The notes under the pieces: generated by a model
What the model saw: the letters and a program-made list of their open reading frames with translations, nothing else
What the model was told of the DNA's origin: nothing
Databases searched by the model: none
NCBI RefSeq assembly: GCF_988242995.1
Contig: NZ_OZ547043.1
Length of the DNA stretch: 64,000 nucleotides
Direction: 5' to 3' (one strand)
Part shown: one piece after another, positions 58,541 through 60,008 of the stretch
Numbering within the stretch: position 1 is the first letter of the stretch
How the letters are laid out: each line of letters begins with the position of its first letter
Made by a program: the position numbers and the translations under genes

Positions 58541-58558
58541 GCCGGATGCGACGCCGGT
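58541..58558. repeat. Left half of a REP palindromic unit split by the IS insertion
   Basis: GCCGGATGCGACGCCGGT ends at the IS boundary. Joining it to the right flank with one GGT copy removed gives GCCGGATGCGACGCCGGTCGCGTCTTATCCGGCC, a typical REP/PU. Confidence 0.7.
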
Positions 58559-58590
58559 TGAACTGAACCCCAAAACCTGGACAGTTTCAG

Positions 58591-59313
58591 TTAACCGGCT
58601 TTTTGATGCTCAGTCCGGTATTCTACCGGACTGAGTCCCCCAAGACTGAGTTTTATTCTTTTTTGATTCCAGTAAGTTATGTATTCGTTAACGGCATTTT
58701 CCAGCTCTTCTACATTTCTGTAGTCCCGGCGATAGTACATTTCTTCTTTCAGGTGACCAAAGAAGTTCTCCATTACCGCATTATCAAGGCAGTTGCCCTT
58801 GCGCGACATGCTCTGCACTAACCCTCTGTCCGCCAGGGCGGACTGATAACTTTTTATCCGGTAATGCCATCCTTGATCACTGTGGAGCAGCGGTTTCTCC
58901 CCTTCAGCAAGGCTTTCCAGCCCCTTATTTAACATCCGCTTCACCAGCTCCTCTGTAGGCCTGCAGGCCGTTTCCCACGCCACGATTTCCCCGTTAAACA
59001 AATCAAGTATCGGGGACAGGTACAGTTTTTGTCCGCCAGCCCTGAATTCGGTGATATCTGTCACCCATTTCTCACAGGGAGCTTCCGCTTTGAACTGTCG
59101 CTGAAGGATATTTTCTGCAGCGAGTCCCATATTTCCCCGGTAAGACCGGTATTTCTTCAGGCGCACAGGAGACTTCAGGCCGAGCTGTTGCATCAGTTTT
59201 CGCACCGTTTTGCCACTGAACTTAAGACCTCTTTTCTGAAGCTCACAATGGATCCGCCGGTACCCATAACATCCCCGGTGTTCATGGAAGATGGAGGCTA
59301 TGAGCTGTTTCAC
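58591..59313 (-). CDS. IS3-family transposase OrfB (integrase/DDE catalytic domain), Met-initiated part
   Basis: 240-aa ORF with an rve-type integrase core (...WVTDITEF...LYLSPILDLFNGEIVAW...HSDQGWHY...NCLDNAVMENFFGHLK...). The native product is probably an OrfAB fusion made by -1 frameshifting upstream. Confidence 0.8.
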   Translation of the reverse strand: MKQLIASIFHEHRGCYGYRRIHCELQKRGLKFSGKTVRKLMQQLGLKSPVRLKKYRSYRGNMGLAAENILQRQFKAEAPCEKWVTDITEFRAGGQKLYLSPILDLFNGEIVAWETACRPTEELVKRMLNKGLESLAEGEKPLLHSDQGWHYRIKSYQSALADRGLVQSMSRKGNCLDNAVMENFFGHLKEEMYYRRDYRNVEELENAVNEYITYWNQKRIKLSLGGLSPVEYRTEHQKAG

Positions 59314-59417
59314 ATCAGCATACTTGTCCTTAGCCTTCTGCAGTGACAGCTGGTAGTACAGCGTGCTTCTGGCCAGCCCTGCAGCCTTTAACAGGTCAGA
59401 CTGGCAGTGTCCGCACC

Positions 59418-59948
59418 TCAGGCTCCGGATGACTTTCGTTTTTTCTCCAGCTCCTGGCGCTTTTTTTCCAGGAGATGCTCCTGCATGGCTTTCAGATATG
59501 CATTTTCTGCGCGAAGATAACGCAGCTCATTCTTCATCTCTTCCGGCGTCATGTTTGCCTCGTTTTCATGGGTATCATCAGAACGGGTCATGCTTTTCTC
59601 CTTCCTGCGCCTGATAAAGGCCTCATTACCAGATTTGCGGTAGCCTTTTATCCAGTTTTTAACCGTGTTGTGGCTGGGAATGTTAAACCGGGCAGCTACC
59701 CGGGGTAGAGACTCAGAATGCCCGAGAGCATAAAGAACCACGCAAAGTTTATCTTCAGGAGAATAGCTACGCTTGTGTCTGCAATCCAGTGCCCGAGGAC
59801 CGTGAAGAAGAAAAAGATTAATCCAGTGTGAGAGGCTGGTGTGAGAAAGTTGAAAGAGTTTTGCCGTAGAAATGATGCCTGCATGACCAGCCAGGTAATG
59901 ATTTACAGCGGCAAGTTTTACTTCAAATGAATGTTTCATAAACTGCAC
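59418..59948 (-). CDS. IS3-family transposase OrfA (helix-turn-helix DNA-binding domain plus leucine zipper)
   Basis: 176-aa ORF MQFMKHSFEVKLAAVNHYLAGHAGIISTAKLFQLSHTSLSHWINLF...; its 3' end carries the A-AAA-AAG slippery heptamer (minus-strand complement of the T-run at 59461-59467). Confidence 0.8.
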   Translation of the reverse strand: MQFMKHSFEVKLAAVNHYLAGHAGIISTAKLFQLSHTSLSHWINLFLLHGPRALDCRHKRSYSPEDKLCVVLYALGHSESLPRVAARFNIPSHNTVKNWIKGYRKSGNEAFIRRRKEKSMTRSDDTHENEANMTPEEMKNELRYLRAENAYLKAMQEHLLEKKRQELEKKRKSSGA

Positions 59949-59990
59949 CTTCAGATGTCAGATTATGTCCAACATTTGGGGTGCAGTTCA

Positions 59991-60008
59991 GGTCGCGTCT
60001 TATCCGGC
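59991..60008. repeat. Right half of the REP palindromic unit split by the IS insertion
   Basis: GGTCGCGTCTTATCCGGCC immediately follows the right IS end. Confidence 0.7.

What the first reader, a model, noticed from the sequence alone, without database searches (positions are those of the whole stretch)
58541..60008. IS1397-like element inserted precisely within a REP palindromic unit between folA and apaH
The element is exactly 1432 bp with 25-bp imperfect terminal inverted repeats. It is flanked by a GGT direct repeat, and the two flanks rejoin into a canonical REP/PU (GCCGGATGCGACGCC-GGT-CGCGTCTTATCCGGCC). This is the signature of IS1397, an IS3-family element known for near-exclusive insertion into PUs. 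It sits between the convergent 3' ends of folA and apaH, so it has probably replaced or disrupted the shared REP terminator structure. The transposase reads antisense toward the folA 3' end.
Basis: partly seen in the sequence, partly recalled or inferred. Interest (0 to 1): 0.5.

Follow-up and report, generated by a model that had tools for sequence, protein, structure and literature searches.

The report
IS1397 inserted in a REP loop
An intact copy of the known E. coli insertion sequence IS1397 has recently jumped into the loop of the repetitive palindrome between the folA and apaH genes, which is this element's textbook behaviour at a site not previously occupied, so the finding is correct but ordinary.

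Summary
Window 58559-59990 is a 1432-bp element with 25-bp terminal inverted repeats (21/25 matching). It is flanked by a GGT duplication at 58556-58558 and 59991-59993. It is 99.9% identical over its full length to copies that NCBI annotates as "IS3-like element IS1397 family transposase", and full-length copies occur in 1707 of 5426 complete E. coli genomes. Its 449-aa OrfAB transposase is intact: an A AAA AAG -1 frameshift site and a DDE triad at D295/D355/E391.

Removing the element and one GGT gives a 77-bp folA-apaH spacer, the same length as in K-12. That spacer and its flanks are 100% identical over 516 bp to four genomes with an empty site. The GGT is the centre of the 5-nt loop (CGGTC) of a REP/palindromic unit. 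Seven other IS1397 loci I sampled also sit in REP loops, with 3-4-bp duplications.

No complete genome carries IS1397 at this REP in either orientation. About 8 kb of flanking DNA is identical to an empty-site genome, so the insertion looks young and strain-specific.

The one weak point is the "shared REP terminator": the REP is certainly split, but nothing shows it was a terminator, and the IS ends supply new hairpins. This is a known element behaving as known at a new site. Interest is low.

The parts
58037..58516 (+). folA (dihydrofolate reductase), intact, 159 aa. Its stop codon is 24 nt upstream of the REP.
   Evidence: Same 480-nt length as K-12 b0048. Annotated as folA in matching genomes.
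58541..58558 (+). Left half of the split REP/palindromic unit (GCCGGATGCGACGCCGGT), including one copy of the target duplication.
58556..58558 (.). Left copy of the 3-bp target-site duplication GGT.
   Evidence: The blastn pieces against the empty-site genome overlap by exactly these 3 bases.
58559..59990 (-). IS1397, complete at 1432 bp, with the transposase on the - strand.
   Evidence: 99.9% identity over positions 1-1432 to PGAP-annotated IS1397 copies. It differs by 1-2 SNPs from each of 13 fetched copies.
58559..58583 (.). Terminal inverted repeat distal to the transposase start (IRR by convention).
59966..59990 (.). Terminal inverted repeat proximal to the transposase start (IRL by convention).
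59418..59939 (-). orfA, 173 aa, with helix-turn-helix domains (HTH_28, HTH_Tnp_1). The ATG is at 59939.
   Evidence: The exact protein is seen on 1000 or more contigs.
59459..59465 (-). Slippery heptamer A AAA AAG in the orfA frame, the programmed -1 frameshift site.
   Evidence: Sequence reading. PGAP annotates 'programmed frameshift' in the equivalent CDS of other copies.
58591..59939 (-). OrfAB fusion transposase, 449 aa, with an rve integrase core and DDE triad D295/D355/E391.
   Evidence: (NF033516 IS3 family, 387 bits against a cut-off of 160).
59939..59990 (-). Hairpin in which the outermost 11 nt of IRL pair with the Shine-Dalgarno region and the first base (A) of the orfA AUG start codon (-24.1 kcal/mol). 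It can form only in transcripts that start outside the IS.
   Evidence: (z = -6.8 for the 146-nt context). The function is inferred.
58553..58605 (+). Hairpin formed by the flank bases CCGGT plus the IRR terminus with 58585-58599, followed by CTTTTTG. It is terminator-like for folA read-through into the IS.
   Evidence: -21.4 kcal/mol. The strict consensus scan did not call it. The function is inferred.
59991..59993 (.). Right copy of the 3-bp target-site duplication GGT.
59991..60008 (+). Right half of the split REP (GGTCGCGTCTTATCCGGC), including the second GGT.
60029..60871 (-). apaH (diadenosine tetraphosphatase), intact, 280 aa, co-directional with the IS transposase.

Best explanation
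Window 58559-59990 is a complete copy of insertion sequence IS1397 (IS3 family) with intact coding capacity; whether it is active is not shown. It transposed into the apical loop of the single REP/palindromic unit in the 77-bp folA-apaH spacer of an E. coli chromosome.

Shown here:
- The element's identity, its intact orfA and orfB, the A AAA AAG -1 frameshift site, the DDE triad and the 25-bp IRs.
- A 3-bp GGT target duplication that is the centre of the REP's 5-nt loop.
- Exact reconstitution of the empty site.

Inferred from established IS3-family biology: OrfAB, made by programmed -1 frameshifting, excises a copy as a circle (copy-out, paste-in). It integrates that copy by staggered cuts 3-4 bp apart in a target that the transposase itself recognises as a palindromic unit.

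The insertion is young and strain-specific, and it leaves both flanking genes intact. It physically separates the two REP arms by 1.4 kb, so the REP hairpin can no longer form at the 3' end of either mRNA. Each IS end supplies a replacement hairpin. The one on the apaH/transposase strand pairs the tip of the IR with the orfA ribosome-binding site. That is the classical arrangement that keeps read-through transcripts from neighbouring genes from being translated into transposase. The most likely phenotypic consequence is none or slight.
For: - Identity. The element is 99.9% identical over 1432/1432 bp to copies annotated 'IS3-like element IS1397 family transposase', and 1707 of 5426 genomes hold a place covering at least 80% of it. 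The exact 449-aa OrfAB is deposited under that name. It matches NCBIfam NF033516 (IS3 family) at 387 bits against a cut-off of 160. Pfam finds HTH_28/HTH_Tnp_1 in OrfA and HTH_21 + rve in OrfB. The OrfAB computed from a reference copy has no amino-acid difference. The DDE spacing of 60 and 36 residues is typical of the family.
- Insertion geometry. IRs and GGT are as described. The empty site matches at 516/516 bases in four genomes. The spacer is 77 bp, as in K-12. The two blastn pieces against NRZ14408 overlap by exactly the GGT.
- Target preference. All 8 distinct loci examined lie in REP loops, with TSDs of 3-4 bp and both REP orientations represented. Other copies' alignments also run 19-34 nt into REP-like flank.
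- Literature. IS1397 inserts specifically into REPs/PUs and the transposase determines the specificity (PMC1525189; PMC3184786).
- Youth. No genome carries either junction orientation. Window 54468-64000, leaving out the IS, has zero differences from the empty-site genome NRZ14408.
- Hairpins.
Against: - ISfinder and the original IS1397 record could not be queried, and the primary papers (PMC94167, PMC95333, PMC169884) are not held. The name therefore rests on NCBI labels.
- Transposition activity, the circle intermediate and the role of the hairpins are inferred, not shown.
- A single assembled sequence cannot exclude a misassembly.
- No expression data bear on folA or apaH.
- The element's own promoter was not identified: the consensus scan found no sigma-70-like site in 58300-60300.
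Confidence: 0.96

Rival explanations
1. The element is a different IS3-family insertion sequence, such as an ISKpn1-like or IS150-like relative, with no real preference for palindromic units. On this view its position inside a REP is coincidence.
For: ISfinder was not available. NCBI's label is a 'family' label.
Against: Identity to the labelled copies is 99.9% over the full length. The OrfAB protein is identical to the commonest IS1397-labelled protein. All 8 distinct loci sampled are in REP loops. REPs occupy a very small fraction of the genome, so coincidence is not credible.
Confidence: 0.01
2. The junctions are an assembly artefact: an IS1397 copy from elsewhere in the genome was placed between folA and apaH by a repeat-induced misjoin at similar REP halves.
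For: REP halves flanking different IS1397 copies resemble each other. No other genome shows this insertion.
Against: Both junctions are exact. The GGT duplication and the site-specific variant of the REP (loop CGGTC, tail CCTTC) are those of the folA-apaH REP itself, on both sides. A misjoin would have to occur twice, in register, and create a perfect target duplication.
Confidence: 0.02
3. The insertion is ancient, and the empty sites in other genomes arose by precise excision.
For: None found here.
Against: None of 5426 genomes is occupied in either orientation. About half carry the intact 77-bp REP allele. Roughly 8 kb of flanking sequence is identical to an empty-site genome. The copy differs by only 1-2 SNPs from each of 13 other copies fetched, which come from 12 genomes.
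Confidence: 0.01
4. The insertion is functionally consequential rather than neutral. On this view, loss of the REP hairpin, transcription from the transposase running antisense into folA, or the new IS-end hairpins measurably change folA or apaH mRNA stability or level.
For: The REP is split. No terminator-like site follows orfB on the - strand before folA. The IS ends form strong hairpins at both gene 3' ends.
Against: There are no expression data. Both coding sequences are untouched. IS transposase promoters are typically weak (general knowledge), and no promoter-like site was detected. The new hairpins may simply substitute for the REP.
Confidence: 0.15

Closest known systems
IS1397 (IS3 family) of Escherichia coli natural isolates
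   Same: Length 1432 bp, 25-bp imperfect IRs, and orfA/orfB with an A AAA AAG -1 frameshift. DDE transposase. 3-4-bp target duplication. Insertion in the centre of a REP/palindromic unit. 99.9% DNA identity to annotated copies.
   Different: Only the location differs. The folA-apaH REP is not occupied in any of 5426 complete RefSeq E. coli genomes.
ISKpn1 of Klebsiella pneumoniae (IS3 family, targets Klebsiella-type palindromic units)
   Same: Same family and the same strategy of targeting palindromic units, with specificity residing in the transposase (PMC1525189).
   Different: It is a different element with a different PU type and host. It was not compared at sequence level here.
IS621 (IS110 family), also REP-targeting in E. 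coli
   Same: Inserts into E. coli REP sequences (PMC3184786).
   Different: It has a DEDD-type recombinase and no terminal IRs of this kind. It inserts at the 3' side of the REP, outside the palindrome, not in the loop, so its anatomy does not match this element.
Other alleles of the folA-apaH spacer (the ccdO157 toxin-antitoxin allele and its decayed forms)
   Same: Same hypervariable intergenic site. About half of genomes have the 77-bp REP allele, about 37% have ccdAB, and about 10% have a truncated ccdA plus two other genes (PMC3184786 citing Mine et al. 2009).
   Different: Those alleles replace the REP spacer with unrelated genes. Here the REP allele is present and simply interrupted by an IS.

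Membership tests
IS1397 (as a named insertion sequence) | Near-identity (ISfinder convention: above roughly 90-95%) to the reference element over its full length. | tested here: met
   99.9% over 1432/1432 bp to copies labelled IS1397 by NCBI PGAP. The exact OrfAB is deposited under that name. It was not compared with the ISfinder/EMBL reference itself, which is unavailable here.
IS1397 (as a named insertion sequence) | Insertion within the central part of a REP/palindromic unit, with a short (3-4 bp) target duplication. | tested here: met
   GGT is the centre of the CGGTC loop. Seven other loci behave the same way. The literature statement of PU specificity is in PMC1525189 and PMC3184786.
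IS1397 (as a named insertion sequence) | Demonstrated transposition activity. | not testable with these tools
   Only indirect evidence: intact ORFs and IRs, a young insertion, and 1-40 places per genome in 3485 genomes.
IS3 family | Transposase matches the family model above its curated cut-off. | tested here: met
   NF033516, 387 bits against a cut-off of 160. Pfam rve, rve_2, rve_3 and HTH_21.
IS3 family | Two overlapping ORFs joined by a programmed -1 frameshift at an A AAA AAG-type heptamer. | tested here: met
   The heptamer is at 59465-59459 (-) in the orfA frame, and the fused ORF is 449 aa. PGAP annotates 'programmed frameshift' in identical copies.
IS3 family | DDE catalytic triad with about 35 residues between the second D and the E. 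| tested here: met
   D295, D355, E391, with spacings of 60 and 36.
IS3 family | Terminal inverted repeats ending in 5'-TG...CA-3'. | tested here: met
   TGAAC...GTTCA.
REP / palindromic unit (PU) of E. coli | An extragenic imperfect palindrome of about 35 bp with GCCGGATG...CTTATCCGGC arms and an internal mismatch. | tested here: met
   The reconstituted sequence folds as 7 + 5 bp stems around a mismatch and a 5-nt loop. It matches the published REP31 pattern TGCCGGATGCGGCGTA|AACGCCTTATCCGGCCTAC apart from the stem variant. It lies between two stop codons.
REP / palindromic unit (PU) of E. coli | Many dispersed copies in the genome. | tested here: met
   Three other REP pairs lie in the window, at about 9414-9476, 42938-42978 and 47393-47421, against 0.27 expected by chance. 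The flanks of seven other IS1397 loci carry the same motif.
   The hairpin is stable (the 102-nt context folds at -48.8 kcal/mol, z = -4.9). There is no T-run terminator in the scanned window sequence with the IS present, and none is visible by eye in the reconstituted spacer, which was not itself scanned. No transcript data are available.

The most novel reading that the evidence does not exclude
The most novel reading not excluded is that the insertion rewires the 3' ends of folA (the trimethoprim target) and of the pdxA-rsmA-apaG-apaH operon. It would replace a shared REP hairpin with two IS-borne hairpins, and transposase transcripts would run antisense into folA. The strain would then have measurably altered dihydrofolate reductase or ApaH levels.
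Probability: 0.08. Interest if true: 0.35.

Novelty: already known. Interest (0 to 1): 0.1.

Why it matters
It matters little beyond annotation. The finding is a clean natural example of IS1397's REP-loop specificity, at a site not occupied in 5426 complete genomes. It adds a fourth allelic state to the already notoriously variable folA-apaH spacer. It could serve as a strain marker. If someone wished to test what REP hairpins do for the neighbouring mRNAs, it is also a natural REP-disruption allele next to the trimethoprim target gene.

Tried and rejected
- Primary literature. I tried to read the primary IS1397 papers (PMC94167, PMC95333, PMC169884, PMC135288) and Mine et al. 2009 (PMC2666520). 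None is held, so literature support comes from secondary sources.
- Terminators and promoters. The consensus scan of 58300-60300 found no promoter-like site and only one weak internal terminator-like site, no more than the shuffles give. Neither the 'REP terminator' nor an IS promoter is supported by that tool.
- Rfam. At a permissive E-value over 57000-61500 there was only a chance miRNA-model hit.
- Intact-REP pattern search. It returned nothing in the window. At least the folA-apaH REP, which would fit it, is split by the IS; the window's other REPs evidently do not fit the strict pattern either.
- Same insertion in other genomes. I searched with left-junction queries in both IS orientations and found none.
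- Recombination boundary. I checked whether the boundary relative to NRZ14408 coincides with the IS. It does not; it lies near 54.47 kb.
- Collection scans. I did not scan the metagenome or GTDB collections for the junction, because identifying the source strain would not change the verdict.
- Circle-junction promoter. I considered an outward or circle-junction promoter (TGAACT-17-CATAAT in IRL) and left it as unsupported speculation.

Full report
**What is in the sequence**

Reading 57800-60900 and extracting the ends gives an element spanning exactly 58559-59990, which is 1432 bp. Its termini are TGAACTGAACCCCAAAACCTGGACA and, on the opposite strand, TGAACTGCACCCCAAATGTTGGACA. These are 25-nt inverted repeats matching at 21 of 25 positions. 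The repeat finder picks up the same arms, extended outward by the REP halves (I1). A degenerate IR pattern occurs only at these two places in the 64-kb window, with 0.00 expected in shuffles. GGT lies immediately outside both ends, at 58556-58558 and 59991-59993.

folA (58037-58516, +) and apaH (60029-60871, -) converge on the element. Both have the same lengths as in K-12.

**What the element is**

A megablast of the 1432 bp against 5426 complete RefSeq E. coli genomes gives full-length matches at 99.9% identity. All of the 25 best-scoring records listed are annotated "IS3-like element IS1397 family transposase". Matches occur in 3485 genomes, at least 80% of the element is present in 1707 of them, there are 7614 places in all, and nearly all are chromosomal.

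- The - strand carries orfA (ATG at 59939, 173 aa, helix-turn-helix domains) and orfB (HTH_21 plus rve integrase core).
- In the orfA frame the sequence reads CTG GAA AAA AAG CGC. This places the classical IS3-family slippery heptamer A AAA AAG at 59465-59459.
- Slipping by -1 there gives a 449-aa OrfAB. It has no amino-acid difference from the OrfAB computed the same way from the SCU-102 copy, whose CDS PGAP annotates as WP_100190663.1 with a programmed frameshift.
- That exact protein is deposited in NCBI under the IS1397 name.
- It scores 387 bits on the NCBIfam IS3-family model, whose cut-off is 160.
- The catalytic residues D295, D355 and E391 are present with family-typical spacing.
- The DNA differs by only one or two SNPs from each of 13 copies fetched from other genomes.

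So this is a structurally intact copy that could plausibly be active. ISfinder itself could not be queried. The name therefore rests on NCBI's labels.

**The target**

Deleting the element and one GGT leaves a 77-bp folA-apaH spacer. That is the same length as in K-12 and differs from it at three positions outside the palindrome. It is identical to the spacer of strain NRZ14408.

A 516-bp reconstructed empty site matches four complete genomes at 516/516 bases in a single piece. A blastn of 40 kb of NRZ14408 against the window gives two pieces that overlap by exactly the three bases GGT.

The reconstituted sequence GCCGGATGCGACGCCGGTCGCGTCTTATCCGGCC folds into the REP/palindromic-unit shape. 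It has a 7-bp outer stem, an internal mismatch, a 5-bp inner stem and a 5-nt loop CGGTC. The duplicated GGT is the middle of that loop. The arms match the published E. coli REP pattern (Additional file 13 of PMC1525189). Similar motifs occur at three other intergenic places in the window.

**Is REP targeting real in these data?**

I fetched 13 copies chosen by IS identity, not by flank. They fall in seven further distinct loci:
- rrf|mobB
- upstream of msrQ
- yphA|yphB
- ybaL|gsk
- trmL|cysE
- caiE|caiF
- ygcQ|ygcP

In every locus the element sits in the apical loop of a REP hairpin, with a 3- or 4-bp duplication. Both orientations of the REP relative to the IS occur. In the junction searches, alignments of other copies ran 19-34 nt beyond the IS end into REP-like flank.

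This agrees with the literature available to me. IS1397 inserts specifically into E. coli REPs, and the transposase determines that specificity (PMC1525189; PMC3184786). The primary papers are not held.

**Age and distribution of this insertion**

Junction queries with the IS in either orientation find no genome among 5426 with IS1397 at the folA-apaH REP. From 54468 to 64000, leaving out the IS and one GGT, the window has zero differences from NRZ14408, which has the empty site. Divergence of about 1.4% begins only upstream of 54467, so the recombination boundary is unrelated to the IS. The insertion is therefore recent and private or rare.

The spacer itself is a known hypervariable site. 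In a spread sample of the 5426 genomes, roughly half have the 77-bp REP allele. About 37% carry ccdAB, and about 10% carry a truncated ccdA plus a hypothetical gene and a DUF4291 gene. This is consistent with Delihas 2011 citing Mine et al. 2009.

**How it works**

Shown here: the anatomy described above.

Inferred from established IS3-family biology:
- OrfAB is made by -1 frameshifting and OrfA acts as a regulator.
- Transposition is copy-out, paste-in through a circular intermediate.
- Staggered cleavage of the target 3-4 bp apart creates the duplication.

Target choice by recognition of the palindromic unit is taken from the literature.

**Consequences for the neighbouring genes**

The REP arms are now 1.4 kb apart, so neither mRNA can form the REP hairpin. 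Whether that hairpin was a terminator is not established. The consensus scan, run on the window sequence with the IS present, finds no T-run terminator there, and REPs are better known as mRNA stabilisers (background).

Each IS end supplies a substitute structure:
- On the + strand, CCGGT of the flank plus the IR tip pairs with 58585-59599-equivalent subterminal bases 58585-58599 and is followed by CTTTTTG (-21.4 kcal/mol). This is terminator-like for folA read-through.
- On the - strand, the outermost 11 nt of the IR (59990-59980) pair with 59949-59939, which covers the Shine-Dalgarno region and the A of the orfA AUG (-24.1 kcal/mol; z = -6.8 for the 146-nt context).

The second hairpin can form only in transcripts that start outside the element. 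It is the classical device by which insertion sequences avoid being switched on by read-through. That is relevant here because the IS is co-directional with apaH, whose stop codon lies 38 bp upstream of the IS end. No terminator-like site follows orfB before folA, so weak antisense transcription into folA is possible but unshown.

**Comparison with what is known, and verdict**

Every defining feature of IS1397, of the IS3 family and of the E. coli REP that could be tested was met. The exceptions are transposition activity, which is untestable here, and the terminator role of the REP, which is inconclusive. The only new fact is the site.

The rival explanations all have little or no support:
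- a different IS;
- a misassembly;
- an ancient insertion with precise excision elsewhere.

A regulatory effect on folA or apaH cannot be excluded, but nothing here points to one. The finding is ordinary: a known element showing its known behaviour.

Noticed in passing
window 58517-60028, compared with L017, L018, L019 and hits H118-H145: The folA-apaH spacer exists in at least three other allelic states among complete E. coli genomes. About half have the 77-bp REP spacer, about 37% have a ccdA/ccdB toxin-antitoxin pair, and about 10% (545 genomes with split matches) have a truncated ccdA plus a hypothetical gene and a DUF4291 gene. The ccd polymorphism is known (Mine et al. 2009, via PMC3184786). 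The third allele's two extra genes were not examined.
   Followed up: partly
window 38300-54467 versus 54468-64000 (against L004, NRZ14408): Identity to NRZ14408 switches abruptly from about 98.6% (231 mismatches spread over 38300-54467) to 100% from 54468 onward. This looks like a recombination boundary near the yaaU/kefF region, about 4 kb from the IS and unrelated to it.
   Followed up: partly
window 9414-9476, 42938-42978, 47393-47421: Three pairs of oppositely oriented REP tails (CTTATCMGGCCTAC), i.e. BIME-like clusters, none occupied by an IS. They are potential further IS1397 targets in this window.
   Followed up: no
window 58609-58635: A perfect 12-bp palindrome (CTCAGTCCGGTA ttc TACCGGACTGAG) lies inside the 3' end of orfB, over the conserved LSPVEYR coding region. 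It forms a 13-bp hairpin on either strand. Its significance is unknown, and it may be part of the barrier to inward transcription.
   Followed up: no
statistics (E. coli genomes): 3485 genomes match the IS but only 1707 have at least 80% of it. About 1800 genomes therefore carry only partial matches or matches at 95-99% identity, which may be relics or a related element.
   Followed up: no
window 58559-59990 versus L002, L005-L016: The window's IS allele has no private SNP relative to the 13 fetched copies, each of which differs from it at 1-2 positions. Yet no complete genome's best match is 100% identical. It looks like an unsampled 'hub' allele.
   Followed up: no
window 1-25000: An ordinary E. 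coli chromosomal region (creD, thrA, dnaK, yaaJ and a fimbrial usher gene), 99.8% identical to several complete genomes. Nothing unusual was examined there.
   Followed up: no
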